Positions 28,876 through 50,770 of a stretch of DNA of 64,000 bases are shown here, piece by piece; the first letter of the stretch is position 1; each line of letters opens with the position of its first letter. Under the pieces are notes generated by a model that ran no database searches, was not told the DNA's origin, and was given only the letters and a program-made list of their open reading frames with translations. Both the position numbers and the translations under genes were made by a program. The DNA is from a bacterium (lineage in GTDB: Bacteria; Patescibacteriota; Minisyncoccia; Minisyncoccales; CG1-02-41-26): positions 48,348 to 112,347 of the forward strand of contig JAUXAO010000001.1 of the NCBI GenBank assembly GCA_030619905.1. Direction: 5' to 3'.

Positions 28876-28876
28876 A

Positions 28877-28909: not shown

Positions 28910-28923
28910 TTCTCAACTCTTTT

Positions 28924-30815: not shown

Positions 30816-30984
30816 AATTCAAACTAAAATTTTGGTAATTAAACATAGGTTTGATACTTTGGGTATCAAAATTATCCACCAAATTTCAATAATTAATTTC
30901 TAAGCCCATTTTAATCAAAAAAGCCCTTTTTGTAAAGGGCATATTCAGTAGACAATATCTAATAAAATAATCAGGGTTCAATTA

Positions 30985-32094: not shown

Positions 32095-33402
32095 TTATCC
32101 TATTAAAGAGGCGATAATCGAACCTCTAAATAAAATGGTAACAATTAGACCTATGAATATCAAAATAGCAAATGGCGACGGTTTATATACTTCTAATAGT
32201 TTTATTTCTTTTCCTTTCACAAACTCCTTTAAAAATACTATCTGTTCTTCAGTTAGACCATCCGAATAAATCTTACCAATGGATTTTTTAAATAATCCTT
32301 CTTCTTTGCCTTTTAATTTATTGATTGTTTCTTCGGTCAAGCGCATACCTGATTTTAATTCTTCTATTTTGACTTTTTGAATCTCTTTTTCCTTAACATA
32401 CCAATCAAACGTTTTTCTAAAAGCAAAACCTCCAAAAATGATTATGGCTGTAACACTTAACATGGGTCTTATTATGAGAGCAGGAGATTGATTTAAACCA
32501 ATCCATTTATAGAACAACCAGAGAAGAAGAGCTACAGCTGCTACATAAAAAACCTTTTTAATTTTTTGTAAGAATTTCATTAAAAAAACAAAAACTCCTA
32601 AAAAAGTGATAAGCAAAACCCATTTTTCAAGGCCCAATATAATCGTGAAAAAATAAGTTAAATTTTCACCTATAATACTTTTAAAAAAGAGTCCAAAAAA
32701 ACTAACCATAACAAAGAAAATAACAAGAAGATTAAGAATTTCTTTAAATAGTGAGAAAATGCTCCTTTTAAATTCTTTTTCTCGAGCAATTTTTTCTTTT
32801 TCAGTTAAAGTTTCTTTTTTCCTTATAAAAATCCGACGAATAAAAGTGAAAACAAGTATTATTAAAAATATCCCTAAAGCAATAATGAAAATATTCAATA
32901 ATAAAGCAAAAGAAGGAAAATAAGATAAGTACGTTTTTGAATAAAATCTTAAAGGTAAAAGGAAAGAAAAAAGAGTAAAAAGTTTAGCATCTCCAGCCGA
33001 CCAAACATTCCAAAACCACATTAAAAATCCCATTCCTAAAGCGATGCCTGTATTAAGAGCGACTTCGCCGAGATAAGAAAGTTTAAAAACCGAGAAAGAA
33101 TATGGACTGATTTTAAAATATTCAAGAATCCAAAAAGTAAAATTCCAGAGAATATATAAACTAAAGATTGTTATGCCCCATAAAAAACCAATTTTTATCC
33201 ATTTATTTTTGATCTTGCCATATTTAAAATCTTCAAAACTAGTAATAAAACCAATAATAAAAATAGGAATCAAAAAAATATAATCTGTAAAAAAAAATTT
33301 ACTTAATAGAAACATTTTGAATCGGGCGATATTTATCAGTTGTTCCCTCGACAATATATTTTTTCTTGATTGGCTTAAACTCGTCACTGCCAACTTTTTC
33401 AA
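32095..33402 (-). CDS. polytopic integral membrane protein (about 10 TM helices) at the downstream end of the rSAM block
   Basis: Hydrophobic helices throughout. Same strand as the upstream rSAM gene and overlapping it; the true start is probably an internal Met (MFLLSKFFF). Confidence 0.45.
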   Translation of the reverse strand: MKKLAVTSLSQSRKNILSREQLINIARFKMFLLSKFFFTDYIFLIPIFIIGFITSFEDFKYGKIKNKWIKIGFLWGITIFSLYILWNFTFWILEYFKISPYSFSVFKLSYLGEVALNTGIALGMGFLMWFWNVWSAGDAKLFTLFSFLLPLRFYSKTYLSYFPSFALLLNIFIIALGIFLIILVFTFIRRIFIRKKETLTEKEKIAREKEFKRSIFSLFKEILNLLVIFFVMVSFFGLFFKSIIGENLTYFFTIILGLEKWVLLITFLGVFVFLMKFLQKIKKVFYVAAVALLLWLFYKWIGLNQSPALIIRPMLSVTAIIIFGGFAFRKTFDWYVKEKEIQKVKIEELKSGMRLTEETINKLKGKEEGLFKKSIGKIYSDGLTEEQIVFLKEFVKGKEIKLLEVYKPSPFAILIFIGLIVTILFRGSIIASLIG

Positions 33403-34237
33403 GATAATCTTTATGGATACCTAAACAATATTTTTTGTAAAGGCAAACTTCACACTTAGGCAAAAAAGTTATTTCATATTCTGGAAGCGTTCTCCAGGTA
33501 TATTTCCATAAAGAATGGTCAATTGTACAGAGGGGAAAATGATAAAAGCGGAATCCTTTAAATTCTGGAATCCATTTAGCTATTTTTGGTATAAATTTTC
33601 TAAACTGAGTATAGGTTAATCCAACAATTTTGAAGTTTTTTTTTGCTTGACCTTCCATTTCCATAAAAATAATCACGATTCGGTCTACTTCAGGAAAATG
33701 ATCCTTGATAAACTCCAATATTTTCTCAGTATACTTATAAGTAAGCTTAGTAATAATAATTCTTAATTCTAATTCATGAAGACCAAGATTTTTATACTTA
33801 AAAATATTTTCAATCCCTTTTATAGTTTGCAAAAAACTCCCCGGTGTTCTAGTAACAGCATCATGAGTCTTTGCATTAAATCCGTGCAAAGATGTATAAA
33901 TATTTATTCTTTTGAATCTTAAAACCTTTTTAGTAAAAGAATCATAACAAAATCTCCTCCCATTAGTGTCTAATTCTATTATTACCGGGGGAAATATTCT
34001 TTTAATGAAAGAAAGTATTCTAAAAAAATCCGGATGGATTGTTGGTTCTCCACCAGTTAGAATCATTTTATCGTCAATCAAGTTGCCTCTTTCATCGAAA
34101 ATTTTAGCAGCACTAATTCTTTTCTTAAGTTCATTAAAACCGTAATTATCATAGGAATCCTTGGCTTGAAAATCAGACGGATTCGTACACATAATACAGT
34201 TACTATTACATTTATTCCAAATAGAAATCACCGGCAT
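33299..34237 (-). CDS. radical SAM protein (short family 'MPxISIWNKC'; paralog of 42670..43599)
   Basis: CNSNCIMC (CxxxCxxC) at the N-terminus; GGEPT; C-terminal CEVCLYKKYCLGIHKDYLEKVG. Confidence 0.8.
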   Translation of the reverse strand: MPVISIWNKCNSNCIMCTNPSDFQAKDSYDNYGFNELKKRISAAKIFDERGNLIDDKMILTGGEPTIHPDFFRILSFIKRIFPPVIIELDTNGRRFCYDSFTKKVLRFKRINIYTSLHGFNAKTHDAVTRTPGSFLQTIKGIENIFKYKNLGLHELELRIIITKLTYKYTEKILEFIKDHFPEVDRIVIIFMEMEGQAKKNFKIVGLTYTQFRKFIPKIAKWIPEFKGFRFYHFPLCTIDHSLWKYTWRTLPEYEITFLPKCEVCLYKKYCLGIHKDYLEKVGSDEFKPIKKKYIVEGTTDKYRPIQNVSIK

Positions 34238-34271
34238 AATTCAAAATTATATTAAGATTATTATTTTATTT

Positions 34272-34481
34272 CTAATTAATATCAAAAGTGATCCTTTCTT
34301 GCTCTTTAAGCTCTCCAATTATTGCTTCCTCTATCTCGTAGAATTTTGCTTCACTTTTTAACTCTTTTTGAGCGCGAGTTATAGCTTTTTTTATATCTGA
34401 AGCCCTAACATATCCTAATACCTCATAATGTTCCTGACTCCGATAAACGACTATGTATCTCTTTAATAATGTTTTAGCCAT
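34272..34481 (-). CDS. 69-aa hypothetical protein embedded between rSAM genes
   Basis: Tightly packed (overlaps the neighbouring gene by 8 nt); no Cys or His; charged helical composition. Confidence 0.35.
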   Translation of the reverse strand: MAKTLLKRYIVVYRSQEHYEVLGYVRASDIKKAITRAQKELKSEAKFYEIEEAIIGELKEQERITFDIN

Positions 34482-35427
34482 ATTTTTTATTTATTTTTAT
34501 TTTTTTATTAACAGGGATAAGTTCTTTATCTCCATAATATTTTAAGTATTCTTTCCAAATTCCCTCACATTCATCATAAAGCTTACATCCTTCACATCTT
34601 TTAGTTTTTGCTCTACCAACTACCCGACGAGATTCTTCAACATCTCGATTCTCGAAATCTGGAGCCAAATGTTCAGTATGAAAAATTACTACCTCCTTTA
34701 ATTCGCTTATCTGGTCTAAATAATCAGTAAAATAACAAAGAGGAACATAACGGATATCCCAATGAGGAACTTTATAAATTCTACCAACATCAAGACATTT
34801 GCGAATATAGGATGCTGCCTCTGAGATTTTTGGAACAAATTTATAAAAATCATCATGGGCCGCTCCATAAGTCGGGTCAACAAAAATAAATTCTGAATTT
34901 CTAATTCCCAAATCGTAAATCAATTTTCCAATATGAGACAAGTTTTTGTAGTTTTGTTTAATTATTGTGGTATTTGAACCAATATCCTTTAGCCCTGCTT
35001 TTCTTACATTTTTTATTCCTTTTTTTAACTGCTCAAAACTACCTGGAACCTGAGTTAAAGAATCATGTAACTTAGCATTATGCCCATGAATAGAAAAAAC
35101 CAAACTATTTAAACCGGCTTCAATTATCTCTTCGGCAAACTTCTTGTAAGAATACATTCGACCATTAGTTGCCATCATTATCGTTTCAAACCCCAACTCC
35201 TTAGCGAATTTTATTAACTCGATAATATCCTGCCTAATACTCATCTCCCCTCCAACTAATTCTAAATAAGTTGTTCCTGAATTTTTGGCCTCCGCCATTT
35301 CTTTTTTTATCTGAAGGGTCGTTTTCTGAGGAATACTATTTCTTTTATGAATATTCAAACAGAAAATGCAATTATTATTGCAACGGTATCCAGGGATAAT
35401 AACTGTTTTTTTAATTTTAAAAGTCAT
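34474..35427 (-). CDS. radical SAM protein (short family '...EGIWKEYLKYYGDKEL'; paralog of 45054..45995)
   Basis: CNNNCIFC motif; GGEMS; C-terminal CEGCKLYDECEGIWKEY. Confidence 0.8.
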   Translation of the reverse strand: MTFKIKKTVIIPGYRCNNNCIFCLNIHKRNSIPQKTTLQIKKEMAEAKNSGTTYLELVGGEMSIRQDIIELIKFAKELGFETIMMATNGRMYSYKKFAEEIIEAGLNSLVFSIHGHNAKLHDSLTQVPGSFEQLKKGIKNVRKAGLKDIGSNTTIIKQNYKNLSHIGKLIYDLGIRNSEFIFVDPTYGAAHDDFYKFVPKISEAASYIRKCLDVGRIYKVPHWDIRYVPLCYFTDYLDQISELKEVVIFHTEHLAPDFENRDVEESRRVVGRAKTKRCEGCKLYDECEGIWKEYLKYYGDKELIPVNKKIKINKKYG

Positions 35428-35439
35428 CTTTTATTTTGA

Positions 35440-36348: not shown

Positions 36349-36412
36349 AGAAAATATTCAATAGCTACATACCAACAGAGATTAGATTACTTTATCAGTT
36401 AATACCCGGTAT

Positions 36413-37258
36413 CTATAACCTGAATTCCTTGGTCCAATATAAATCTATATAAGATTTTAAAACTCCGTCGCATTTATCGCTATAAGGACAATTTTTACAT
36501 AAAGGAATTCTTACTTTTTCTGGATTTTTTTCAAGACAAGGAAAAAAATATTTTCTTCCTTCCTTAGGAAGCGCACAAGGAAGAAATTCTACCAGTAAAA
36601 ATTTAAGAGAGAAATCAGTTTTGTAATCTTCTAAGATATTTATCACATACTGACCAAGTTCACTCATCTTCATTATAATCTTTTTACTGCGGGAACGTTT
36701 AGAAAGAGGAGCAGCATTGAGAATATTGATTTCCTTTATTCCTAAATCTTTTACTAAATTAATCATTTTAGGAAGTTCCAGATAATTTATTTTAGTCAAA
36801 AGTAGATTAATAATCAAGCTAAAATTTTCTTTTTTAAGGTCCAATATATTTTTTATTCCCATTATAGTTTGAGAAAAACTTCCATTAACTCGAGTCTGGT
36901 TATCATGTACTTCAGGGGTCGCTCCATTAAGAGAAACAACTATTTGATTAACTCCAGCAGCAAATATTTTTTTAACAAAATCCCTGTAAGCAAGTAGTCG
37001 TCCGTTAGTGGTAAAACCAATTTGCCTAAAATCTAGTTTTTGGGTAAATTCCAAAATTTCAATAAAATCCTTTCTTAAAGTCGGTTCTCTCCCCATAAAA
37101 TTAACAAAATCATAATGTTTTCTGGCTTGGGAAACTTCTTTTTTTATCTGTTTAATGGTTTTTAACTTTAAATCTTCCATATATTCGTCTGCTTCTGAAC
37201 AAAAAATACAATTATTATTACAACGGTAACTAATATATATATAAGGACTAATTTCCAT
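36413..37258 (-). CDS. radical SAM protein (short family)
   Basis: CNNNCIFC; GREPT; C-terminal CKNCPYSDKCDG. Confidence 0.8.
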   Translation of the reverse strand: MEISPYIYISYRCNNNCIFCSEADEYMEDLKLKTIKQIKKEVSQARKHYDFVNFMGREPTLRKDFIEILEFTQKLDFRQIGFTTNGRLLAYRDFVKKIFAAGVNQIVVSLNGATPEVHDNQTRVNGSFSQTIMGIKNILDLKKENFSLIINLLLTKINYLELPKMINLVKDLGIKEINILNAAPLSKRSRSKKIIMKMSELGQYVINILEDYKTDFSLKFLLVEFLPCALPKEGRKYFFPCLEKNPEKVRIPLCKNCPYSDKCDGVLKSYIDLYWTKEFRL

Positions 37259-37272
37259 AAAAAATGTGATGT

Positions 37273-38361
37273 TTATTCTACGTTTTCTTTAATAAATTCT
37301 CTAATTTTTCTCAACCGCTGCTCATCTTTTACTGGTCTAAGCTCCTCTGTTCCATATATCTGAGCATATATTTTCCAAAGACCAGCGCAGTAATTATTTA
37401 AAAGACAAATATTGCATCTTTCTGGCTTTATCTTGCTTTTACTATGAAATTCTTTTGTAGCTAATTGATATTGTTTTTTTACTTTCCCATCGATTAATTT
37501 AATATTTTCTGGCTGGTCAATAATTTGTTGAGCTATAAAATATTGCTCATAATTCTTGAAAAAACATAAAGGAACCATTCCACAACTGGAAATACTAAAA
37601 AATATATCTTTCTTCTTGCAAAGATCCAAGGCTTTTAAAAAATAAGGTTCTACTTCTGAAAGCTTTGGAAATATATGTTTATTTTTCAAAGCGGCACCAG
37701 CAGGATAAATAAAAGAAAAAATTACACACTTTATTGCCGGAAAACAATTAGAAAGAAATTCAATAAAATCAGGAGTATCTTTGTAATTTTGTCTTGCGAT
37801 AATATGATAAATAGAAATATATGCCCCAAGATTCAAGAGATTCTCAATGCCTTTTATGGTCTTCTTAAAGGTATTAGGAGTATCAACCAAATATTCGGAA
37901 ATTTCTTTTTTATGAGAATGAAGAGAGACCGAAAAAGATGGTTGTGTTTTACGAAAAGCAGAAACTATTTTAGCAGCAAATTTCTTATCAGAAAATTTAA
38001 GGGCATTAGTTAAAATACAAATTTTTCTGAACCCTAAATCTTCTGCAAAACTGATCAGTTCAGGCAGGTCTTTTCTTAAAGTTGGCTCTCCTCCGTCAAA
38101 CTGTAATTCTTGATAATTTTCCTCATATCCCTTTTTAATTTCCTTTTTACATTCTTCCGTATCAAGAGTTATTTCAGGATCTTTACTTTCTCTTTTCACA
38201 CAAAAAAGACAATTCTCATTACAAGAAGAAAGTGAAGAAAAATAAAACTTTTTTACTCTTTTAAACATTGATGTTTTTGGCTCAGAGCCATAATTTCTTC
38301 TTGACCATACAAATCTAAATAATCTTTCCAAATCCCACCGCATTCCTTGTAAAACTTGCAT
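37273..38361 (-). CDS. radical SAM protein (short family); true start probably internal (MFKRVKK...)
   Basis: CNENCLFC; GGEPT; C-terminal CNICLLNNYCAGLWKIY. The track ORF overlaps the upstream gene by 109 nt. Confidence 0.75.
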   Translation of the reverse strand: MQVLQGMRWDLERLFRFVWSRRNYGSEPKTSMFKRVKKFYFSSLSSCNENCLFCVKRESKDPEITLDTEECKKEIKKGYEENYQELQFDGGEPTLRKDLPELISFAEDLGFRKICILTNALKFSDKKFAAKIVSAFRKTQPSFSVSLHSHKKEISEYLVDTPNTFKKTIKGIENLLNLGAYISIYHIIARQNYKDTPDFIEFLSNCFPAIKCVIFSFIYPAGAALKNKHIFPKLSEVEPYFLKALDLCKKKDIFFSISSCGMVPLCFFKNYEQYFIAQQIIDQPENIKLIDGKVKKQYQLATKEFHSKSKIKPERCNICLLNNYCAGLWKIYAQIYGTEELRPVKDEQRLRKIREFIKENVE

Positions 38362-39224
38362 TTCACGCAGATACCTATTCTTTCCTTATGGATATCTGTA
38401 TAGATGTCATCTTCCTTTTTTTTAAATCTCACAGGTTTATATCCTATTTGTTTGGCAATGTTTTTCCTACCTTCAGCTGTAATAAAAGTAGTATGAAGAT
38501 TATCTTTTATTTCCGATTTAAAAAGACAAAGAGGGAAATCAAAAAAAGTAACAAGATCAAATTTATTTAAGATGCTTTCAAGATTATTTAAGGCGTCTGA
38601 TAAATCATTCATTCTCACCACTAATGTCTCATAGAAATCTTTTGCATAGCCGTCGGGAATAAGGTCTAAAATATTGAAAAATTTAATTTTTAAAGAGAGG
38701 ATAAACTTCCCCATATCAGTAAGATGAGAATAGTTCAACTTGGAAATTACCGTGTTTACAATAATTATCACTTCAGGAAACTTTTGAATGTTTTTTATTC
38801 CTTGAATAGTTTGTTCAAAAGCATTAGGAGTACGAGTGACAGCATTATGAATTTTTGCATTGTGCCCATAAAGGGAAAAATTGATTCGCCTTACACCATT
38901 TTTAATCAATTCCTCGGCAAAATCATTATAACTCAACATTCTTCCATTGGTACTCAGGGCTATATCTTTATAACCTAAATCTTTAGCAGATTTTATTAAA
39001 TCTAAAATATCTTTTCTTATAGTTGGTTCACCACCAGTAAATTCTACTCTTCTAAAGCCCTGCTTTATGCCTTTTTGAAGATCGTCTAATATTTCTTGAG
39101 TAGTCCTGTCTTTATAATTCTTCTCTTTGGGCTTAGTGGTACACATAATACAGTTATTATTACATGAAAACCCAAGCATGGCTAAAAATACTTGATCTGA
39201 TGGTTTATTTAAAGATTGAGGCAT
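38253..39224 (-). CDS. radical SAM protein (short family)
   Basis: CNNNCIMC; GGEPT; C-terminal CVKCKFYKECGGIWKDY. Confidence 0.8.
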   Translation of the reverse strand: MPQSLNKPSDQVFLAMLGFSCNNNCIMCTTKPKEKNYKDRTTQEILDDLQKGIKQGFRRVEFTGGEPTIRKDILDLIKSAKDLGYKDIALSTNGRMLSYNDFAEELIKNGVRRINFSLYGHNAKIHNAVTRTPNAFEQTIQGIKNIQKFPEVIIIVNTVISKLNYSHLTDMGKFILSLKIKFFNILDLIPDGYAKDFYETLVVRMNDLSDALNNLESILNKFDLVTFFDFPLCLFKSEIKDNLHTTFITAEGRKNIAKQIGYKPVRFKKKEDDIYTDIHKERIGICVKCKFYKECGGIWKDYLDLYGQEEIMALSQKHQCLKE

Positions 39225-39227
39225 AAA

Positions 39228-40145
39228 TTAAATTTTTGTATTTTTAGTTTCTACTGGTTTAAATTCTTCCCAGCCAAAAATTTGGGGATATTCTTTCCAT
39301 GGACCTTCACAAATTTTGAAATATTTACATTTTGAACAGTTCGGACCTTTGAGTTTCCCTTCTCTCCTTCTATATTCGCCATAATCCTCAATAGACCATT
39401 CAGCATCATAGACCGACCCATTTGGGATTCCCTTTTCAGCAATATAATCTTCATAGCCTTTCATAAAACAATAAGGAATAGCTTCAGTCATTACTCTTAC
39501 CCCTGCATCTATACCAATTTGAAGACCTTTTCTAACATAAGACATTATTTTGGATTTTCGAGGAACAATTTCATCTATTAATTTTTTATTTTCTAAAAGG
39601 ATATGATTAATGTGGATAAAAGCGAATTGGAATTGGTCAACTCCTAGACTTACCAGAAGTTTTGCAATCTGGGGGAGATATCTATAATTAGGTTTGGTAA
39701 TCACCGTATTCATGAGAATACGTTGACCTAACGATTTAAGATTCTTTATACCGGTAGTACTCTGCTTAAAACTTCCAGGAACAGTAGTTAAACTATCGTG
39801 AAGTTTAGCATTATGACCATGTAGGGCTAAAGCAAATTCGTTAGCTCCTTTTTTAATTAAATTCTCACAAAACTTTTTATAAGCAAACATCCGTCCATTG
39901 GTCTGAATCTGAATTACCTTAAAATCTAATTCCTTTGCATATTTAACAAGATCTGGTAAGTCTTTTCTAATAGTTGGTTCGCCACCGGTAAAAACTAGTG
40001 CCTCATGTTTTTTCCGGGCCTCTCTTAAAATCCTTTTAATTTCTTTAGTAGTTTTATCAGGGTATTCCTCTCTTTTATTTCCTTGGACGCAAAATCGACA
40101 ACGATTATTACATTGAAAACCTACTTTTATATCTACTCTCTGCAT
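39228..40145 (-). CDS. radical SAM protein (short family)
   Basis: CNNRCRFC; GGEPT; C-terminal CSKCKYFKICEGPWKEY. Confidence 0.8.
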   Translation of the reverse strand: MQRVDIKVGFQCNNRCRFCVQGNKREEYPDKTTKEIKRILREARKKHEALVFTGGEPTIRKDLPDLVKYAKELDFKVIQIQTNGRMFAYKKFCENLIKKGANEFALALHGHNAKLHDSLTTVPGSFKQSTTGIKNLKSLGQRILMNTVITKPNYRYLPQIAKLLVSLGVDQFQFAFIHINHILLENKKLIDEIVPRKSKIMSYVRKGLQIGIDAGVRVMTEAIPYCFMKGYEDYIAEKGIPNGSVYDAEWSIEDYGEYRRREGKLKGPNCSKCKYFKICEGPWKEYPQIFGWEEFKPVETKNTKI

Positions 40146-40154
40146 ATTTAAAAA

Positions 40155-41297
40155 TTATTTAAATAATTGCCAGCATTGAGGGTCTGGCAAAAATTGAGGA
40201 TCTTCCAAGTAAGAATCTTTCCAGTATCCATAACTTACACATTTAGCTCCTCCTTGACATTTATCAAAATAAGTACAACTTTGACAACGAGTGTTTATAT
40301 TCCTTGGATTTCTTAATTTTTTCAATTCTTCAGATTTATAGAATATTTCTTCTAAAGATTGTTTTAAAACACTACCAACATAAATTGGCAATCTCCGGCA
40401 GGGATAAACATCACCATTTGGTAAAATTGTCAAAGAAGAGTATCCAGCTACACAGGTATTTGCCTTATATCCTTCCTGGGCTAAAATTCCATCTTCGCAA
40501 CCTATGCCTACACTCAGTTTCGATTTCTGATTGATTAACTTTCTATTAGTTTTCAGAAGGGAGAGATACAATCTTTTTGTCTCTTGAGGAGAAAGGATTA
40601 ATTTCTTCATTTCTTCTCCTCTGCCAAGAGGAATGAATCTTCTTAATCCTAGACTATTTACTCCTAACTTTCTAGCCAGTTCAATTAATAAAGAAATATC
40701 TCTTAAATTCTGTTTAGTCACTGTTACTGAAATACCCGTATTAATTCTATTTTTAACTAGTAATTCTATTGCTTTTGCTATTTTTTTAAAAGTTCCTTTG
40801 CCCCGAATTTCATCATTTTTCTCTCTCATGCCTTCTAAACTTACCTGAGCATAATCAATCTTGAATCTGTTAAGTTTAATTATTTTCTTATCGTCAAGTA
40901 ATATACCATTAGTAAGGATTCCATATCTAGTTTTTTCTCTATTTTGGTAACATTTCTTCAGAAATTCAAAAAAATCATCTCTGAGCAATGGTTCGCCACC
41001 AGTAATAGAAATTCTTGATTTGTCGCAGGGAAGGTTCCATTTTTTTAGAAGTTTCATGTAATTATCAAGAATTTCAAAAAGCTTACTTAAAAAAAGCTCA
41101 TTTTTCAAAAATTTCTCATCAAAATAACAATGCTTACAGGACAAATTGCATCTTTCCGTAATATGCCATTGTAGATGGAAAGAATCTGGTTGATATTGAG
41201 ATTCAGTAAACATTTTCTTATAATAACACACTAGTCCTATTCTGAGAAATATTTTTTGGATTATACTTTCAAAATAGAAAATCCCTTGCCAAAACAA
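40155..41297 (-). CDS. radical SAM/SPASM-domain peptide-maturase-like protein
   Basis: CNLSCKHC; GGEPL; SPASM-type C-terminus (CVAGYSSLTILPNGDVYPC ... CQSCTYFDKCQGGAKC). Confidence 0.8.
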   Translation of the reverse strand: MFWQGIFYFESIIQKIFLRIGLVCYYKKMFTESQYQPDSFHLQWHITERCNLSCKHCYFDEKFLKNELFLSKLFEILDNYMKLLKKWNLPCDKSRISITGGEPLLRDDFFEFLKKCYQNREKTRYGILTNGILLDDKKIIKLNRFKIDYAQVSLEGMREKNDEIRGKGTFKKIAKAIELLVKNRINTGISVTVTKQNLRDISLLIELARKLGVNSLGLRRFIPLGRGEEMKKLILSPQETKRLYLSLLKTNRKLINQKSKLSVGIGCEDGILAQEGYKANTCVAGYSSLTILPNGDVYPCRRLPIYVGSVLKQSLEEIFYKSEELKKLRNPRNINTRCQSCTYFDKCQGGAKCVSYGYWKDSYLEDPQFLPDPQCWQLFK

Positions 41298-41311
41298 ACT
41301 GACAAGGGATT

Positions 41312-42502
41312 TTAATCACGTCCTACTATTTTTGAGAGACATCTGATTGATCCGCCAAATTTGGTAATTCCCATACCTATTTCTACTTCTTTTACTCTAA
41401 AACCTAAAGATTCGTAAATTTCTATTGCCTTCTTATCTAGTGACTCTATCCCGTATATTGGTAAATACACAACTTTTTCCTTTCCTTTTTCTTCAATTAG
41501 AACATTATTATATGTAATAAAATGAGCAAATCTCCCGTGCAAAATCTGAGTAGAATAAATAACTCCAAAGTAAGGTATTCTTATTACTCGAAATCCCTGA
41601 TTTTCAAGTTTATCTTTTGCCTTCTCTAGTGCTCCAGAGATATCTTCGGAAAGATTTAATTCAATCTGTTTTCTAAAAATCGGTGAATCAAGAATTGAAG
41701 GATCACCTGTTTTAAGCAATAAATCTACTGCTAATCTTGAATCTCCTAAAAGCAGAGTCTTCTTTCCGATTGGAGTTAAATACATATCGATATGATCAAA
41801 TGGGGCTCTATGATTCTTGTCTCCAATGATAACCACATTTTTACCAAACATTTCTTCTAATTTCTGGATGATTTCTTGTTCATCTAATTCTAATCTACTA
41901 TTTTCCTCAATCAGAGAATATCCTATGAATACATTTCTATCATTAGATACGATGTTCCCGCCATCGAAATCTAGATCGGATACAATACTTGTCATATGAG
42001 GATATGTTTCAGATAAAGCCCTTGAAACCGCTGAATACCTTTCTGATGCAGGCACTATAAGTGTAATTCCTTTATCTTTGTTTTTAACAATAACATACCC
42101 ATCTTGTCCCCAAGGAGAAAGTTTTTCCTCGCTTTCTGGAATCAGTAATGTTCTAATAGTATTGTGGATATTCCATTTGTCTTTTATTATTTCGGGCAAT
42201 CTTTCAAAATACGACTGAGATTCGGTAATTATAGTTATCTCTACATTACTATCAAGTTCTTCTAGTATCGATCGGAAGTAACTTAGTGAGACAGACCAAA
42301 AATAATTGTTTTTTGATTGTGGAATCTGAAATACAATGTGTTGAATTTTACCTTGATTGTCTGATAATATCTTCTCTGTTTCATATCTCCGAAAAATAAG
42401 GTCTGCAAATCCGGGAACGGTCTCATTCAAAACGACCAATAAGATTATCAAAAAAATCAACGAAACTACCAAAAATGATTGTCTCTTCATCTTTTTCACC
42501 AC
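41312..42502 (-). CDS. guanidino-group-modifying enzyme superfamily protein (agmatine deiminase / PAD_porph-like), membrane-anchored
   Basis: N-terminal TM helix; WGQDG, DFDGGNIVSNDRNVFIG, HIDMYL and C-terminal GGSIRCLS (catalytic Cys in a GGxIHCxT-like context). Confidence 0.55.
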   Translation of the reverse strand: MVKKMKRQSFLVVSLIFLIILLVVLNETVPGFADLIFRRYETEKILSDNQGKIQHIVFQIPQSKNNYFWSVSLSYFRSILEELDSNVEITIITESQSYFERLPEIIKDKWNIHNTIRTLLIPESEEKLSPWGQDGYVIVKNKDKGITLIVPASERYSAVSRALSETYPHMTSIVSDLDFDGGNIVSNDRNVFIGYSLIEENSRLELDEQEIIQKLEEMFGKNVVIIGDKNHRAPFDHIDMYLTPIGKKTLLLGDSRLAVDLLLKTGDPSILDSPIFRKQIELNLSEDISGALEKAKDKLENQGFRVIRIPYFGVIYSTQILHGRFAHFITYNNVLIEEKGKEKVVYLPIYGIESLDKKAIEIYESLGFRVKEVEIGMGITKFGGSIRCLSKIVGRD

Positions 42503-42669
42503 CTCTTTTATTTTTAATTTTCTGAAAATAAGAAATTCTTATATTTTCTTATTTTCCAATCTCTATTATAGCGCAAAATTAAACTGATGTCAAGATTCTA
42601 TTTTTCAATTAAAGGAATTCTTGTTTAAATCAATCTGCTGAGAAGATAATATGCTTTATTTTGATATAT

Positions 42670-43599
42670 CTATCTGCTCTGATTAAGATCCTTAATTTCG
42701 ACAATAGGGTGATAAAAATCATCTTCTGTCTTAATGGGTATCTTTTTTCTAATAGGTATAAATTCTTTACCTCCTACTAATTTTAAATAATCTTTATGAA
42801 TACCTAAACAATATTTTTTGTATAAGCATTTATTACAAGAAGGTAAAAAAGTAACCTCATCTTTACGCAGAGTTCTCCAATGATATTTCCATAAATTAAA
42901 ATCAATAGTGCATAAAGGGAAATGATATAAGCGAAGCTCTTTAAATTTTTTTTCCCATTTTTCAAACAAAGGTGGTAAATACTTTCTAATCTCTTTATAG
43001 GTAATACCCACCGTTTTAAAGTTCTCTCCGCATACCCCTTCCATCTCTTGAAAAAGGAGTACTACCCGGTCAACTGAAGGAAACTTATTTATTACTAAAT
43101 TAAGTATTTTATCTAAATATTTGTAATTTTGTCTGATAAGAATTATTCTTATTTCCAATTGGTGAGAATCGTTTTTATACTTCAAAACATTATGAATACC
43201 GGCTATTGTCTGGTTGAAGCTTCCTTTGACCCTAGTAATATTATCATGCATTCGAGCATTATAACCATGGATAGCTATTTCAAAAATAACATCATTTATA
43301 AAAAAACATTCTCTAGCGAATTTCGGATAACAAAACATCCTTCCGTTGGTGGCTACAACAACCTTCGTTTGGGGAAATTGTTTTCTGAACCATTTGAGTA
43401 ATCTTAAAAAATCGGGGTGAATAGTTGGCTCCCCTCCAGAGAGGTTAATTGTCTCTTCAATCTTCCCAAAAGATTTAATGTTCTGAATAATCTTTTCAAA
43501 CCTAAGAAGATCCGAATCTATTTCATTCTGAAAATTTGGAGAATTGGTGCACATTACGCAATTATTATTACATTTATTCCAAATCGAAATATCAGGCAT
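42670..43599 (-). CDS. radical SAM protein (short family 'MPxISIWNKC')
   Basis: CNNNCVMC; GGEPT; C-terminal CNKCLYKKYCLGIHKDYLKLVG. About 60% identical to 33299..34237. Confidence 0.8.
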   Translation of the reverse strand: MPDISIWNKCNNNCVMCTNSPNFQNEIDSDLLRFEKIIQNIKSFGKIEETINLSGGEPTIHPDFLRLLKWFRKQFPQTKVVVATNGRMFCYPKFARECFFINDVIFEIAIHGYNARMHDNITRVKGSFNQTIAGIHNVLKYKNDSHQLEIRIILIRQNYKYLDKILNLVINKFPSVDRVVLLFQEMEGVCGENFKTVGITYKEIRKYLPPLFEKWEKKFKELRLYHFPLCTIDFNLWKYHWRTLRKDEVTFLPSCNKCLYKKYCLGIHKDYLKLVGGKEFIPIRKKIPIKTEDDFYHPIVEIKDLNQSR

Positions 43600-43615
43600 G
43601 ATACAATTAAATAAT

Positions 43616-43762
43616 TTATTTTATTACTTTTAGCTCTTTATCTCCGTAATGTTTTAAATATTCCTTCCAAATTCCTTCACATTTATCGTATAATTTACAA
43701 GTTCGGCATTTTTCTGTTTTACCTTTAGCAATGATAATGAAAATCAATAATTTTTTCCATAT
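43616..43762 (-). pseudogene. remnant C-terminal fragment (about 45 aa) of an 'EGIWKEYLKHYGDKEL'-family rSAM gene
   Basis: The minus-strand translation ...AKGKTEKCRTCKLYDKCEGIWKEYLKHYGDKELKVIK* is nearly identical to the C-terminus of 45054..45995. It has no N-terminal part. Confidence 0.6.
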
Positions 43763-43765
43763 TCT

Positions 43766-44821
43766 TTAAATCCAACACATCGGGTCTGTTTCCAAATAAT
43801 CATCTCTTAAATTATGTGCCGTTCCTCTGCAACCACCACAAATATTTCGTTTTGGACATTTTCTACATTTACCCTTTAAATTATCTCTATTTCTTAATTT
43901 AAGAAAAAGTTCTGAGGTTAGCCAGAGATTTTTCAAATTATCCTTTCTCACATTCCCAACTTTAATCATTAATACAGGACAAGGAGTCACATCTCCAGTT
44001 GGAGTTATACATAAGCTCGTAACTCCTGCTCCACACCCACCATAAATACTTTTATAGGGACTCTTGGGATAATCGGGATCTAACAAACACTTTAACGGAT
44101 CACCGGTGCTAATTAACAATTTTCCCTCTAATTTTTTTTTATTTCTGTAAATCAATTTAAGTATTTTTTTGTTTTGTTCTTTAGTTAACGCTAAATAGCG
44201 ATTTTTTGCTCCTCTTCCAGTGGGAATAAATCGCTCCAAAGACAAGGCATTAACTTCTAATTTTAAAGCTAATTCAAAAAGTTTTTCTATTACAGGGCTT
44301 GTTTTTGTTAATGATGTTATAACTGAAACCATTGTAACTCTCATACCTTCTTTCTTGGCAATCTTAATTCCCTTAATTACTTTTCTAAATGTACCCTTTC
44401 CTCTTATTTCATCATTTAATTCAGCTGTGGGTCCATCAATACTGAAATGCATTTCTTCCATTCCAGCTTCTTTAAGTTTTTTTATAAGTCCCTTTGTAAC
44501 AATCGTTCCGTTAGTTGCTGTAGAAACTCGCAATCCAGCTTCAGAGGCTTTCTTTGTGTATTCTATGATGTGCTCATGCAACAAAGGTTCTCCACCTGAA
44601 AAAAAAAGCATCTTTACACCAGCTTCTATTATTTGATTAAGTACTTTTAAGCATTCTTCATGACTTAGCTCATCTCTCAGAGCTTTTCCGGAAAAAGAAC
44701 AGCATGTTTTGCACATTAGATTACATTTATGAGTAATTTCCCACACAACCATTATTAAACTATATTCCCTTTCTTTATTAACCATGTTTAAAAAAGTGTC
44801 AATTATTTTTTTACTTGCCAA
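43766..44821 (-). CDS. radical SAM/SPASM-domain protein (TTG start)
   Basis: CNLMCKTC; GGEPL; SPASM C-terminus (CGAGVTSLCITPTGDVTPC ... CRKCPKRNICGGC). Confidence 0.8.
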   Translation of the reverse strand: MASKKIIDTFLNMVNKEREYSLIMVVWEITHKCNLMCKTCCSFSGKALRDELSHEECLKVLNQIIEAGVKMLFFSGGEPLLHEHIIEYTKKASEAGLRVSTATNGTIVTKGLIKKLKEAGMEEMHFSIDGPTAELNDEIRGKGTFRKVIKGIKIAKKEGMRVTMVSVITSLTKTSPVIEKLFELALKLEVNALSLERFIPTGRGAKNRYLALTKEQNKKILKLIYRNKKKLEGKLLISTGDPLKCLLDPDYPKSPYKSIYGGCGAGVTSLCITPTGDVTPCPVLMIKVGNVRKDNLKNLWLTSELFLKLRNRDNLKGKCRKCPKRNICGGCRGTAHNLRDDYLETDPMCWI

Positions 44822-45053
44822 TTATTACTACAAATTTGCCTTTGATTTTACTACTAATTTTATCTTTCTAAATTTTTCCAATTACTCTCTTAATAGTGCA
44901 TTGGCAAATTATTTTAAATTTTCTAATCAATTTACGGTTGGACAATATAATTCTGGACATTATCTGGATCTAACTTAGAAGCTTTACTAAAATATTCTTC
45001 AACTTTTTCTAAATTTCCAAATAGAAATGTTAGGCATGATACAATTAAACAAT

Positions 45054-45995
45054 TCATTTTATTACCTTTAACTCTTTATCTCCGTAATGTTTTAAATATT
45101 CCTTCCAAATTCCTTCACATTTATCATATAATTTACAGTCCTGACATTTCTCCGTTTTGCTTTTAGCTAAATTTATTCTTGATTTTTCCACATTTAAATT
45201 AGTAAAATCTGGAGCAATATGTTCGGTACGGAAAATTTTCAATTCTTCTAATTCGCTTATCTGGTCTAAATAATCTCTAAAATAGCAAAGGGGAACATAT
45301 CGAATATGCCAGTGAGAAATATTATTTTTCCTCCCGATATCTAAACATTTGTGAGCATAGGGAGCTACTTCCGAAATTCGTGGGACAATTTTATCAAAGT
45401 TATCAAAGGCCGCTCCACAAGTTGGATCAACAAAAATAAACTCAGAATCTTTAAATCCTAAATTTAAAAGAAACTCTCCAATTTGAGGAAGATGTCGATA
45501 ATTTTGTTTAACTATAACAGTGTCTGAACCGAGATAAATATTTTTCAGTCTTAGTGCTTTTATATATTTTTTTACGTTTTCTAAACCTTTCTTTAATTTT
45601 TCGAAACTGCCAAGAACTTGTGTCAAAGAATCATGGAGTTCGGCTGTTTCACCATGAATAGAGAAAATAATGTTGTTCAGACCTGCTTTTAATATTTCTT
45701 TGGTAAAAGTTTCATAATAAAACATCATCCCATTAGTTGGAATAGTCATAACTAAAAACCCTAAGTTCCTAGCAAATTTTACTAAATCAATAATATCAGA
45801 CCTAATAGTCATTTCTCCTCCATTCAATTCTATGTAATCGGACCCTTTTTTTCTTGCTTTTATCATCTCTCTTTTTATTTCGTCACTAGTCTTGTCTGGG
45901 ATATCTCTCTTATTGGAATTAAGACAAAATAAACAGTGACAGTTACACCTATATCCAGCAATGATTACTGTTCTTTTTATTTTTTTTCTCTGCAT
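45054..45995 (-). CDS. radical SAM protein (short family '...EGIWKEYLKHYGDKEL')
   Basis: CNCHCLFC; GGEMT; C-terminal CQDCKLYDKCEGIWKEY. Confidence 0.8.
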   Translation of the reverse strand: MQRKKIKRTVIIAGYRCNCHCLFCLNSNKRDIPDKTSDEIKREMIKARKKGSDYIELNGGEMTIRSDIIDLVKFARNLGFLVMTIPTNGMMFYYETFTKEILKAGLNNIIFSIHGETAELHDSLTQVLGSFEKLKKGLENVKKYIKALRLKNIYLGSDTVIVKQNYRHLPQIGEFLLNLGFKDSEFIFVDPTCGAAFDNFDKIVPRISEVAPYAHKCLDIGRKNNISHWHIRYVPLCYFRDYLDQISELEELKIFRTEHIAPDFTNLNVEKSRINLAKSKTEKCQDCKLYDKCEGIWKEYLKHYGDKELKVIK

Positions 45996-47811
45996 ATTTT
46001 GTAAGACTATTTTTATAATCTTTAAATATCTGTTTCCTATCAGAGTAATCGCTTATTTTTTTAGTACTCCAGATTCCATTACAAAATTTAATTTTTTTGT
46101 TTTGGACAGTAAATAATTCTAAACATTCATAACAGTCTTTAGGAATTTTGTAGTTCTGAATAATCTCTCTATGTCTTAAGCCAAATAGACGTTTAGGAAG
46201 AGGCTTGGTCACTTTAAAAAATACTTTATTCTTCTTGAGATTGGAAAGAAAAATTTCCACCTTTTTTCCGGTTTCAATATTTAAATCATTCTTGAAAAAG
46301 TTGAAAGAAAGTAAAAGTAACTTTGGCTTATAGTCTTTATTTTTACAGGATAATATTTGTTTTAATAATAAACTTAAGTCTTTTTGGGCTAGATTAATTT
46401 TAATTAAGGAACTTTTCTCCATTAAATTTCCATCTGTTTCCATTAACTCGAATTTGTTGAAATACATAACGAAAAATAACGCTGATTTCTTCCGTTCAAA
46501 AAAAGGTTTTATTCCCTCCCAATATTTCTCAGCACGATAAAGTATATATTTTTTGGATACCTTTCTCGTAAATAAACAATCTTCTTTGGATGGTTTAAAT
46601 ATGTTTTTTGTTACTCTCAACGCTCGTGAAGGACAACTCCCCCCGCAATTCCATTTTAAAAAACAATCATGACATTTTCTCATATTATTTACAGTTCTCC
46701 TTTGTAAGTATTTAACTTTCTTTTGGTTCAAAATGAACTTGTTATTCTTTTTATCGTATTTCCCATAAATGAAAGGGGACTTTTCATGCGATTCGCCTAG
46801 ATAATCATCATAACATGCGCTGATAAAACCGTCCGTAGTCAACATAAAGTTAGGGATAGAACAATCACAATAAATATTTCTTTTACAATAAATGTTAAAG
46901 AAAACGTTTTCTTTTAGATAAATATCAAGCTCTTCTGCTAATTCTCTCGCAGCCAAAAACTCATTAATGTATGTGTCAAAATCTGGACGCTGAGTGAATA
47001 GACTTGTTGTTTGATCGCTCCTGCCCATTTTAAACAATGGCGAAAAATGTATTTGATTTATACCTAATCTGCGCAAATATTCTAATATTTCCTTCTGTCT
47101 TTCGACTGAATATGCTGTAATAGTAGCTCTAACAAAAAGATTAATATTAAATTTTGAAAGAATTTTTATTGTCCTTTCTATAAAATGACTAGTTTGCTTT
47201 CCATTTTTAGACGGCCTCTGCTTGTCCTGTACAGATGGGGGACCATCACAGGAAATTGAAACCCAATCCATATTTTTTGCCAGCCATAAAGCAGTTTCTT
47301 TTGCAAATACTCCATTTGTTTGAATACCAAAATAAGCTCTTTCTACTCTCTTTCTGGCATAAGCCACTATTTTTTTGACCAATTCTATTCTGACAGTAGG
47401 TTCTCCACCTCCTTGAAAACGAATGCAAAGACTTTTGGGATTCTTTCTAAGTTTTAAGAAAAAATCAATACTTTTTTTTGCTAATTCTAAATTTATATTA
47501 ATCTTTTTTTCTCCTCCTCTGGCATAACAATACTTACACTTTAAATTACAATTCGTCGTTGGGAAAATAAACATTAGAGTCCTAGGACCAAAAGATTGAT
47601 TATCCGGAATTGGCAAAGTATAAGAAACATTTCTATTTTTAATATTTCCTAATTTATTATTAAATAGAAAAACTCTGTTTAGTAAAGAACTATAAAAAAT
47701 ATAACCATCTTTAATTCGGCCTATTCTATGTAAATCCGGCTTAATTCTAATTTTATCATTGAGATTTCTTAGTTTCGAGTTGTCGATTAAATCAAATTTT
47801 TTTGTTTTCAT
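45949..47811 (-). CDS. large radical SAM/SPASM protein (anSME-like core with N- and C-terminal extensions; paralog of 48821..50182); HxsB/HxsC-like candidate
   Basis: CNLKCKYCYARGGEKK; GGGEPT; SPASM (CDCSIPNFMLTTDGFISAC ... CHDCFLKWNCGGSCP). The N-terminal 60 aa are shared with 48821..50182. Confidence 0.8.
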   Translation of the reverse strand: MKTKKFDLIDNSKLRNLNDKIRIKPDLHRIGRIKDGYIFYSSLLNRVFLFNNKLGNIKNRNVSYTLPIPDNQSFGPRTLMFIFPTTNCNLKCKYCYARGGEKKININLELAKKSIDFFLKLRKNPKSLCIRFQGGGEPTVRIELVKKIVAYARKRVERAYFGIQTNGVFAKETALWLAKNMDWVSISCDGPPSVQDKQRPSKNGKQTSHFIERTIKILSKFNINLFVRATITAYSVERQKEILEYLRRLGINQIHFSPLFKMGRSDQTTSLFTQRPDFDTYINEFLAARELAEELDIYLKENVFFNIYCKRNIYCDCSIPNFMLTTDGFISACYDDYLGESHEKSPFIYGKYDKKNNKFILNQKKVKYLQRRTVNNMRKCHDCFLKWNCGGSCPSRALRVTKNIFKPSKEDCLFTRKVSKKYILYRAEKYWEGIKPFFERKKSALFFVMYFNKFELMETDGNLMEKSSLIKINLAQKDLSLLLKQILSCKNKDYKPKLLLLSFNFFKNDLNIETGKKVEIFLSNLKKNKVFFKVTKPLPKRLFGLRHREIIQNYKIPKDCYECLELFTVQNKKIKFCNGIWSTKKISDYSDRKQIFKDYKNSLTKYAEKKNKKNSNHCWI

Positions 47812-50745: not shown

Positions 50746-50770
50746 TTTTTATCTATATTCGAATATTTTA

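What the first reader, a model, noticed from the sequence alone, without database searches (positions are those of the whole stretch)
33299..47811. rSAM paralog families and a duplicated gene module with an inserted SPASM gene
The short rSAMs fall into recognisable pairs. 34474..35427 and 45054..45995 both end …EGIWKEYLK(Y/H)YGDKEL. 33299..34237 and 42670..43599 both begin MP(V/D)ISIWNKCN and end …LGIHKDYL. In the downstream copy, the module [EGIWKEYLK-rSAM → MPxISIW-rSAM] is intact at 33.3-35.4 kb. In the upstream copy, the module is interrupted by the SPASM gene 43766..44821, which is flanked by truncated remnants (see next finding). The two 45949/48821 large SPASM rSAMs likewise share an N-terminal domain of about 60 aa. 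The locus has therefore grown by segmental duplication and insertion.
Basis: seen in the sequence. Interest (0 to 1): 0.6.

Follow-up and report, generated by a model that had tools for sequence, protein, structure and literature searches.

The report
Old rSAM gene pairs, one shuffled
Two pairs of look-alike radical-SAM enzyme genes in a 15-enzyme cluster of a tiny uncultured bacterium are real, but they are ancient copies that each have their own counterparts in other genomes, and the only recent event is that a neighbouring gene hopped into the joint between one pair.

Summary
A (34474-35427) and A' (45054-45995) are 61% identical. B (33299-34237) and B' (42670-43599) are 50%. The large SPASM enzymes 45949/48821 are 43% identical over their whole body, not just 60 aa. 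The SPASM gene X (43766-44821) between A' and B' is flanked by a 153-nt direct repeat (88%) that carries a B' 5' stub and an A' 3' stub.

Each copy has closer orthologs in other Patescibacteria than its partner in the window: A 82-88%, A' 78-80%, B 73-77%, B' 79-95%. Synonymous sites between the paralogs are saturated. In NJ trees A'B' groups with the single-copy pair of another lineage (95-97% bootstrap). The pairing motifs are family-wide signatures. So the split is ancient, by duplication or transfer, and was not made recently in this locus.

X is not foreign. In contig L031 the order is A'-B'-X. In L001 X is inverted. In the window and L030 it sits in the A'/B' joint.

The cluster is an expanded His-Xaa-Ser (Hxs) system, with two HxsA4 repeat proteins and HxsB. 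Interest is moderate to low.

The parts
34474..35427 (-). A: short HxsC4-like radical SAM protein (317 aa) of the conserved core cluster
   Evidence: CxxxCxxC plus C-terminal CxxCx5C. Best NCBIfam hit is HxsC4 at 150 bits, below the cutoff of 500. Orthologs are 82-88% identical in L002, L003, L005 and P0001.
34272..34481 (-).
   Evidence: ORF found. Orthologs are 59-65% identical at the same position in L002, L003 and L005, and 41-50% in L007-L017. dN/dS versus L030 is 0.19. No family hit.
33299..34237 (-). B: short HxsC-like radical SAM protein (312 aa) of the core cluster
   Evidence: Best NCBIfam hit is HxsC TIGR03977 at 165 bits, below the cutoff of 268. Orthologs are 73-77% identical in L002, L003 and L005.
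45054..45995 (-). A': paralog of A (61% aa) in the accessory cassette
   Evidence: Orthologs are 78-80% identical in L001, L030 and L031. A mosaic breakpoint lies near 45260.
45015..45167 (.). J1: junction repeat copy 1. It holds the functional 3' end of A', a 16-nt spacer and a 23-nt B' 5' stub (stub ORF MPNISIWKFRKS* runs 45037-44999).
   Evidence: family D5.
43724..45012 (-). X cassette, about 1.29 kb: the SPASM rSAM gene with about 190 nt upstream and 36 nt downstream. The ORF is 43766-44821; the likely true start is 44785 (339 aa), as called in relatives.
   Evidence: It aligns as one block to L001 8546-7270 (86%, inverted there) and, from 44917 down, to L031 10733-11928 (91%, downstream of B' there). 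Best NCBIfam hit is AhbD/NirJ2-like SPASM, below cutoff. dN/dS is 0.21.
43577..43729 (.). J2: junction repeat copy 2. It holds an A' 3' stub (43616-43729, ...KTEKCRTCKLYDKCEGIWKEYLKHYGDKELKVIK*, no start codon), a 16-nt spacer and the functional start of B'.
   Evidence: family D5.
42670..43599 (-). B': paralog of B (50% aa) in the accessory cassette
   Evidence: Orthologs are 95% (L030), 81% (L001) and 79% (L031); nothing lies between 59% and 79% among 5.8 billion proteins.
45949..47811 (-). Large rSAM-SPASM peptide-maturase-like protein (620 aa) with an extra C-terminal region of about 170 aa; paralog of 48821
   Evidence: 43% identical to 48821 over about 450 aa. Best hits are PapB/HxsB-like, below cutoff. 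Orthologs are 77-85% in L001 and L031.
48821..50182 (-). Large rSAM-SPASM protein (453 aa); paralog of 45949
   Evidence: Orthologs are 87-90% identical, and both paralogs sit on the same contig L031.
47878..48048 (-). Deletion remnant of a B12-binding radical SAM gene (a 16th rSAM). Residues 1-35 and 420-454 remain.
   Evidence: tblastn of the L031 454-aa protein gives 71% and 69% on the two ends. The gene is intact in L031 and L001.
40155..41297 (-). Core-cluster SPASM rSAM; distant paralog (36%) of X
   Evidence: Orthologs are 72-76% identical in L002 and L003.
36413..40145 (-). Four further single-copy HxsC4-like short rSAMs: 36413-37258, 37273-38268, 38253-39224, 39228-40145
   Evidence: Each has its own ortholog at 65-81% in L002/L003.
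50206..51166 (-). Two tandem HxsA4 His-Xaa-Ser repeat proteins (50206-50745 and 50771-51166), the presumed substrates
   Evidence: NF038313 scores 96 and 71 bits, above the cutoff of 55. They carry 35 and 22 HxS units. The leader DNA is 100% identical over 126 nt.
54769..56214 (-). HxsB radical SAM/SPASM maturase
   Evidence: TIGR03978 scores 536 bits, above the cutoff of 370.

Best explanation
Window 32-56 kb is an expanded His-Xaa-Ser (Hxs-type) maturation cluster of a Patescibacteria (CPR) genome. It has three parts.

1. An HxsB / HxsA4 part at 50-56 kb.
2. A widely conserved core at 32-41 kb: SPASM, four HxsC4-like rSAMs, a DUF483 protein, A, a 69-aa protein, B, and a membrane protein.
3. 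A rare accessory cassette at 41-50 kb, wedged between them: 48821, SBP, (B12-rSAM, now deleted), 45949, A', B', X and a PAD-like protein.

A'-B' is an old second copy of the conserved A-B gene pair. The split, whether by duplication or by transfer of the pair, predates the divergence of several Patescibacteria lineages. Both copies are kept under purifying selection.

The only recent structural events are local rearrangements inside the accessory cassette. In the ancestor of the window and L030, the SPASM gene X, which originally lay just downstream of B' (the L031 layout), was moved into the A'/B' joint. This duplicated 153 nt of the joint and left a B' 5' stub and an A' 3' stub. CapK_C and most of a B12-rSAM gene were lost.

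Shown here: the pairings, the orthology, the repeat and the synteny. Inferred: the direction of the events, the molecular mechanism of the move (duplication plus deletions, or recombination between diverged strains), and that the rSAMs act on the HxsA4 repeat proteins.
For: - Pairing.
- Orthologs closer than paralogs.
- Saturated dS between paralogs (1.8-1.9) against dS 0.1-0.4 and dN/dS 0.08-0.23 between window and L030 for all 13 genes.
- Trees: A with L002/L003/L005/P0001 100%; A' with L001 100%. B' with L001 is sister to L007/L009/L010 at 97%, and the B clade groups with L011 at 89%. The concatenated split {A'B', L001, L007, L009} has 95%.
- Family-wide motifs.
- Core-cluster synteny in L002, L003 and L005 down to RNase Y and the pilus genes.
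- A directly followed by B in single-copy clusters L012 and L013.
- Junction repeat.
- The same J1-X-J2 layout in the independently assembled L030 (92% nt identity).
- L031 layout A'-16 nt-B'-X(+)-CapK(-)-PAD.
- L001 is the same with X-CapK inverted between 155-nt inverted repeats.
- Hxs identity: HxsB and both HxsA4 above the curated cutoffs. HxS-repeat genes lie next to the core cluster in L002, L012, L016 and L022. NCBI names a B homolog 'His-Xaa-Ser repeat-associated downstream radical SAM protein' (P0199).
Against: - Deep nodes of the A tree are weak: 49% for A' with the Nealsonbacteria-like clade.
- Only NJ on BLOSUM distances was possible. A fast-evolving recent copy could be pulled to a deeper position.
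- Raw identities among the deep lineages are all close (50-61%).
- The direction of the X move rests on three relatives, and no outgroup carries the cassette.
- No biochemical evidence links any of these rSAMs to HxsA4.
- All eight short rSAMs score below the HxsC and HxsC4 cutoffs.
Confidence: 0.8

Rival explanations
1. A-B was duplicated within this very locus in the recent ancestry of this genome. The new copy diverged quickly, and a foreign SPASM gene was then inserted into it.
For: A/A' and B/B' are each other's nearest paralog families within the window and keep the same order and strand. The two modules lie only about 9 kb apart. Gene content of this cluster is plastic in relatives.
Against: More than 120 clusters from other organisms are closer to A than A' is. 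About 65 are closer to B' than B is. Orthologs of A', B', 45949 and X exist in L001 and L031 at 76-88%. dS is saturated. Bootstrap support of 95-97% places A'B' with another lineage's pair. X is a resident neighbour in L031, not foreign.
Confidence: 0.06
2. The A'-B' pair, together with the rest of the accessory cassette, reached this lineage by horizontal transfer from another Patescibacteria lineage related to L007/L009 (Nealsonbacteria-like). It is not an ancient vertical duplication retained here and lost elsewhere.
For: B' groups with L007/L009/L010 at 97% and the concatenated pair at 95%. In that lineage the genes are the single-copy core-cluster pair. The cassette is very rare: only four or so closely related contigs carry it, with nothing between 59% and 79% for B', and no GTDB species representative exceeds 63% for A'. 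The 45949/48821 family has DPANN archaeal homologs at 40-44%, which shows that this gene family crosses lineages.
Against: A' and B' are only 56-63% identical to the L007/L009 genes, so any transfer is itself old or came from an unsampled donor. GC content of the cassette (0.29-0.31) matches its neighbours. The A tree gives only 49% support.
Confidence: 0.4
3. X is an autonomous mobile cassette that inserts at conserved gene junctions with a long target duplication, which would explain its three different positions and orientations in window/L030, L001 and L031.
For: A discrete block of about 1.29 kb (X with its own upstream region) is found at three positions or orientations at 86-91% identity. 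It is flanked by a 153-nt direct repeat in the window.
Against: No transposase, integrase or terminal inverted repeats lie in or next to the block. The L001 state is explained by a simple inversion between 155-nt inverted repeats. The window state is reachable from L031 by a tandem duplication of [joint-B'-X] plus two deletions. All moves stay within 4 kb.
Confidence: 0.08
4. The junction repeat and the interrupted module are an assembly artefact, for example a chimeric join of co-existing strains in a metagenome bin.
For: Related strains with different layouts (L001 and L030) co-occur in one sample, JGI 3300033153. The window is mosaic relative to L030.
Against: L030 is an independent assembly from another data set. 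It has exactly the same A'-J1-X-J2-B' layout and is collinear over 13.9 kb at 92% identity. J1 and J2 differ by 12-16%, so they would not collapse or mis-join. All flanking genes are intact and under purifying selection.
Confidence: 0.02

Closest known systems
HXS antiphage system of E. coli and other Pseudomonadota (HxsA, HxsB, HxsC, HxsD; Nat Commun 2026, PMC13128918)
   Same: A protein with tandem His-Xaa-Ser repeats is encoded next to an HxsB-family rSAM/SPASM enzyme (536 bits, above cutoff) and HxsC-like rSAM enzymes. In E. coli, HxsB and HxsC are required to mature HxsA, which involves N-terminal processing and a +8 Da modification in an HxS motif, and HxsC works with the small protein HxsD.
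   Different: The E. coli system has four genes in the order D-B-C-A, five HxS repeats and a peptidoglycan-binding domain, and 99.7% of systems are in Pseudomonadota. Here there are 15 rSAM genes and two HxsA4 proteins with 22 and 35 repeats behind an N-terminal leader and a hydrophobic segment. No peptidoglycan-binding domain was looked for in HxsA4. No HxsD was detectable. All eight HxsC-like proteins fall below the HxsC cutoff. The host is a Patescibacterium. No function has been tested.
NCBIfam HxsA4 / HxsC4 'rare' Hxs variant (NF038313, NF038332)
   Same: Both repeat proteins pass the HxsA4 cutoff (96 and 71 bits against 55). Six of the eight short rSAMs have HxsC4 as their best family.
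   Different: The HxsC4 scores are 114-184 bits against a cutoff of 500, so none is an HxsC4 equivalog. B and B' match HxsC better (165 and 185 bits against 268).
Multi-rSAM RiPP-type clusters with SPASM or twitch maturases (PapB/ranthipeptide, SCIFF, PqqE-like)
   Same: 45949, 48821, 51720 and 53681 have PapB, SCIFF and HxsB as best hits. The short rSAMs carry a C-terminal Cys...CxxCx5C motif that fits an auxiliary cluster.
   Different: All scores are below the family cutoffs. The putative substrate is a 130-180 aa repeat protein, not a short peptide. The core genes are unusually conserved (64-88% across lineages).

Membership tests
HXS (His-Xaa-Ser) system | HxsA: a protein with tandem His-Xaa-Ser repeats | tested here: met
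   NF038313 HxsA4 scores 96.4 bits (50206-50745) and 71 bits (50771-51166) against a cutoff of 55. The proteins carry 35 and 22 HxS units.
HXS (His-Xaa-Ser) system | HxsB radical SAM/SPASM maturase (TIGR03978) | tested here: met
   54769-56214 scores 535.9 bits against a cutoff of 370, full length.
HXS (His-Xaa-Ser) system | HxsC radical SAM maturase (TIGR03977) above the curated cutoff | tested here: not met
   The best scores are B' at 184.6 and B at 165.3 bits against a cutoff of 267.9. The other short rSAMs score 79-122 bits.
HXS (His-Xaa-Ser) system | HxsD small partner protein | tested here: not met
   No NCBIfam hit at E<=1 for the 69-aa ORF or for 52804-53664, and no HxsD model among the weak hits of 51163-51630. 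The 69-aa protein could be an analogue. Its single-sequence structure model was too poor to test this (pLDDT 57).
HXS (His-Xaa-Ser) system | Gene order HxsD-HxsB-HxsC-HxsA (99.6% of described systems, PMC13128918) | tested here: not met
   The order here is HxsB, two SPASM rSAMs with an unknown 286-aa gene between them, a 155-aa gene, then two HxsA4 genes. The HxsC-like genes lie 5-17 kb downstream.
HXS (His-Xaa-Ser) system | Antiphage activity and rSAM-dependent maturation of HxsA | not testable with these tools
   This needs expression and phage challenge. PADLOC v2 gave only generic viperin-type rSAM similarity.
HxsC4 (NF038332) | Score above the curated cutoff of 500 bits | tested here: not met
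   The best score is 184 bits (39228-40145). A scores 150 and A' 145.
Recent in-locus segmental duplication | Paralogs closer to each other than to any ortholog in other genomes, with unsaturated synonymous divergence | tested here: not met
   A/A' are 61% identical against orthologs at 78-88%. B/B' are 50% against orthologs at 73-95%. dS is 1.8-1.9. For contrast, the two HxsA4 genes share 126 nt of identical DNA.
Radical SAM superfamily | CxxxCxxC cluster motif and a PF04055 hit | tested here: met
   All 15 proteins show CxxxCxxC. PF04055 was confirmed directly for A and B, and precomputed PF04055 is recorded for their orthologs.

The most novel reading that the evidence does not exclude
The Patescibacterial multi-rSAM Hxs cluster may be a modular system in which accessory cassettes (A'B', X, the B12-rSAM, CapK_C) are gained, lost and reshuffled between co-existing strains by recombination at highly conserved gene joints. 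This would diversify the chemistry installed on long HxS-repeat envelope proteins, as expected for a locus in an arms race with phage or a host, given that E. coli HXS blocks phage DNA entry.
Probability: 0.2. Interest if true: 0.65.

Novelty: new variant of a known kind. Interest (0 to 1): 0.38.

Why it matters
The finding itself is ordinary genome evolution: gene families that grew by duplication and a local rearrangement.

The context carries more value. A reduced-genome CPR bacterium devotes about 24 kb to 15 radical SAM enzymes around two long His-Xaa-Ser repeat proteins. The only characterised Hxs system is a four-gene antiphage barrier in E. coli. The orthology map built here separates a conserved core, a rare accessory cassette and recent rearrangements. 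It shows which enzymes are universal partners of HxsA4-type proteins and which are strain-level add-ons. That is the information needed to pick constructs for reconstituting the chemistry.

The work also shows that shared terminal motifs can mark family membership rather than recent duplication.

Tried and rejected
- Looking up the window's own proteins in the contig index failed: A and the 100% match P0241 are not on record. The source record could not be read. It is probably an NCBI MAG with a 216-kb contig.
- The metagenome scan with B' returned only relatives at 56% or less, with no cassette orthologs. These were still useful as single-copy outgroups.
- The GTDB genome scan with A' found nothing above 63%.
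- PADLOC gave only generic viperin-like rSAM similarity.
- NCBIfam and Pfam gave nothing for the 69-aa ORF, 52804, 32095 or 51163. There were only weak DUF483 (35440) and PAD_porph (41312) hits.
- The single-sequence AlphaFold model of the 69-aa protein had pLDDT 57, so no fold search was run.
- A literature search for a described CPR multi-rSAM cluster found nothing specific.
- A short 45-nt similarity flanking the L001-specific segment was considered as a target duplication. It is better explained by the L031-to-L001 inversion.
- The idea that X is a mobile element was rejected for lack of any recombinase or terminal repeats.
- An assembly artefact was rejected because L030 reproduces the layout.

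Full report
**What is there.** From 25 kb to the end of the window, all genes lie on the minus strand. Between 33.3 and 56.2 kb there are 15 radical SAM ORFs, each with a CxxxCxxC motif. They fall into three architectural groups.

1. Eight short enzymes of 281-331 aa carry a C-terminal Cys...CxxCx5CxG motif. Their starts are 33299, 34474, 36413, 37273, 38253, 39228, 42670 and 45054.
2. Two compact SPASM enzymes are 40155 and 43766.
3. Five peptide-maturase-type SPASM enzymes with an N-terminal extension are 45949, 48821, 51720, 53681 and 54769.

NCBIfam identifies 54769-56214 as HxsB (536 bits, cutoff 370). It identifies 50206-50745 and 50771-51166 as HxsA4 His-Xaa-Ser repeat proteins (96 and 71 bits, cutoff 55). 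The eight short enzymes have HxsC or HxsC4 as their best family but all score below the cutoffs. The locus is therefore an expanded Hxs-type cluster. Named database homologs come from Patescibacteria: Portnoybacteria, Nealsonbacteria, Parcubacteria and Minisyncoccia.

**Checking the observation.** All-vs-all BLASTP confirms preferential pairs.

| Pair | Identity | E-value | Next best partner |
|---|---|---|---|
| A 34474 / A' 45054 | 61% over 306 aa | 4e-141 | 37-40% |
| B 33299 / B' 42670 | 50% over 307 aa | 5e-111 | 28-30% |
| 45949 / 48821 | 43% over about 450 aa | 5e-128 | below 25% |
| 40155 / X 43766 | 36% | 9e-51 | 24-31% |

The 45949/48821 similarity covers the whole enzyme body, not only the first 60 residues.

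The SPASM gene X sits between A' and B'. It is flanked by a 153-nt direct repeat, 45015-45167 and 43577-43729, at 88% identity (family D5). Each repeat copy consists of the last 115 nt or so of A', a 16-nt spacer and the first 23 nt of B'. A B' 5' stub therefore follows the real A', and an A' 3' stub precedes the real B'.

One correction applies to the 'intact' downstream module. A conserved 69-aa gene (34272-34481) lies between A and B. Its orthologs are 59-65% identical at the same position in relatives.

**Age of the pairs.** A has more than 120 database clusters at 64-88% identity, all closer than A'. A' has its own ortholog at 78% (P0116). Contexts fetched for these proteins give two kinds of loci.

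- L002 (GCA_030603395.1), L003 and L005 are syntenic with window 24-41 kb. Shared genes include the SPASM gene, the short rSAMs, DUF483, A, the small ORF, B, the membrane protein, the Ig protein, RNase Y, HU, the two-component genes and the pilus ATPase. Each window gene matches its positional ortholog at 59-84% and its in-window paralog at only 50-63%.
- L001, L030 and L031 carry orthologs of 45949, A', B' and X at 76-95%.

A search with B' found only the L030 and L001 proteins (95% and 81%), and then nothing above 59%. The window-type B proteins rank around position 90, at 49-50%.

Nei-Gojobori estimates give dS of 1.8-1.9 (saturated) for A/A', B/B' and 45949/48821. Window versus L030 gives dS of 0.1-0.4 and dN/dS of 0.08-0.23 for all 13 shared genes. 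Every copy is therefore functional.

NJ bootstrap trees agree with this.
- A groups with P0001, L002, L003 and L005 at 100%, and A' groups with L001 at 100%. A' is not sister to A.
- B' with L001 is sister to the single-copy B genes of L007/L009/L010 at 97%. The B clade joins L011 at 89%.
- The concatenated A+B split {A'B', L001, L007, L009} has 95% support.

They mark orthologous families, not a recent copy.

By contrast, the two HxsA4 genes share 126 nt of 100% identical DNA. That is what a recent in-locus duplication, or gene conversion, looks like here.

**The A-B pair as a unit.** In distant single-copy clusters A is directly followed by B (L012, L013) or separated from it by the small ORF. 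A' and B' show the same foreign affinity in their trees. Whether the origin was an ancient duplication with losses or a horizontal transfer cannot be settled here. The rarity of the cassette and its affinity to another lineage lean slightly toward transfer. The low identity to that lineage (56-63%) shows the event is old either way.

**The 'insertion'.** DNA comparison with relatives orders the recent events.

- L031 (14 kb) matches the window at 84-91% nt identity. It reads: 52804, 51720, 51163, two HxsA genes, 48821, SBP, a B12-binding rSAM, 45949, A', a 16-nt gap, B', X(+), CapK_C(-), then the start of the PAD-like gene.
- L001 is the same, but the X-to-CapK segment is inverted between 155-nt inverted repeats (96-99% identical) made from the X 5' region.
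- The window and L030 are collinear over 13.9 kb at 92% identity. They have A', J1, X, J2, B' and then PAD. CapK_C is gone.

The moved block, about 45012 to 43724, has sharp ends next to the two repeat copies. It contains no recombinase. The simplest route from the L031 layout is a tandem duplication of [joint-B'-X] followed by two deletions. An equivalent route is recombination between diverged strains.

Two observations hint at inter-strain recombination.
- Window versus L030 is 95-98% identical from 45260 downstream but only 73-86% upstream. The window A' is 78-80% identical to all three other alleles, while L030 and L001 are 89% identical to each other.
- The substitutions in the J2 stub that window and L030 share are almost all third-codon changes. 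Later changes found only in L030 include two that break invariant residues.

The window also keeps a fused remnant of the B12-binding rSAM at 47878-48048 (residues 1-35 plus 420-454). The gene is intact in L031 and L001.

**How it most likely works.** HxS-repeat genes accompany the core cluster in at least five independent loci: the window, L002, L012, L016 and L022. HxsB orthologs accompany it in L012 and L014. NCBI names one B homolog a 'His-Xaa-Ser repeat-associated downstream radical SAM protein'. In E. coli, HxsB and HxsC are both required for maturation of HxsA, which includes a +8 Da change in one HxS motif, and HxsC pairs with the small protein HxsD. The product blocks phage DNA entry (PMC13128918).

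By inference, the short rSAMs here modify the long HxsA4 repeat proteins. A/B and A'/B' would then be retained copies with diverged specificity, and the 69-aa protein might be an HxsD-like partner. None of this is tested. No HxsD similarity was detectable, and the structure model was unusable.

**Verdict.** The pairing and the disrupted joint are real, but the duplications are ancient and each copy has its own orthologs. The SPASM gene is a relocated neighbour rather than an insertion from outside. As a finding it is ordinary genome evolution in an unusual and poorly studied cluster. The cluster itself is a new variant of the known Hxs kind.

Noticed in passing
window 34272-34481 (-): A conserved 69-aa gene lies between A and B and overlaps the end of A by 8 nt. 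It is present at the same place in most related core clusters but absent from the A'-B' copy. It may be a small partner protein analogous to HxsD. No family hit was found and the structure model was poor.
   Followed up: partly
window 50206-50745 and 50771-51166 (-): Two tandem HxsA4 repeat-protein genes share 126 nt of 100% identical DNA covering the leader and hydrophobic segment, while their HxS arrays differ (35 versus 22 units). This is a recent duplication or gene conversion, unlike the rSAM pairs.
   Followed up: partly
window 47878-48048 (-): A remnant of a B12-binding radical SAM gene, with its N-terminal 35 and C-terminal 35 residues fused into a 57-codon ORF. The full 454-aa gene sits at this position in L031 and L001, so about 1.2 kb was deleted in this lineage.
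   Followed up: yes
window about 45260, inside A' (45054-45995): A recombination breakpoint. Window and L030 are 95-98% identical downstream (J1, X, J2, B') but 73-86% upstream (the A' body and the 3' end of 45949). The window's A' allele is 78-80% identical to L030, L001 and L031, while L030 and L001 are 89% identical to each other.
   Followed up: partly
L001 5180-5335 and 8309-8462: Inverted repeats of 155 nt, 96-99% identical, made from the X promoter/5' region. They flank CapK_C, a 113-aa gene and X. Compared with L031 the segment is inverted. It could be an invertible switch or a one-off inversion.
   Followed up: partly
window 45949-47811 and 48821-50182: This large SPASM family has homologs of 40-44% identity annotated from DPANN archaea (Altiarchaeota, Aenigmarchaeota) among its best database hits. 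That suggests exchange between episymbiotic bacteria and archaea.
   Followed up: no
window 37273-38361 (-): The listed 362-aa ORF overlaps 38253-39224 by 109 nt. The likely true start is the Met at 38268 (331 aa, 16-nt overlap), which matches the L030 call (331 aa). This gene is absent from L002.
   Followed up: partly
window 41312-42502 (-): A weak Porphyromonas-type peptidyl-arginine deiminase hit (31 bits, GGSIRC motif near the C terminus). The gene closes the accessory cassette and is conserved in L030, L031 and L001. It may be a guanidino-group-modifying tailoring enzyme.
   Followed up: no
L007 73-3240 and L009 1216-4392: In this other lineage the 38253-like and 37273-like rSAMs appear fused into one ORF of about 1055 aa. 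In L013 and L021 a 644-aa ORF covers two such domains.
   Followed up: no
window 24253-32025 (-): The rSAM cluster sits directly upstream of a conserved block: a membrane protein, an Ig-like protein, RNase Y, HU, a two-component system, and type IV pilus PilB- and PilC-like genes. This neighbourhood is conserved in L002 and L005.
   Followed up: no
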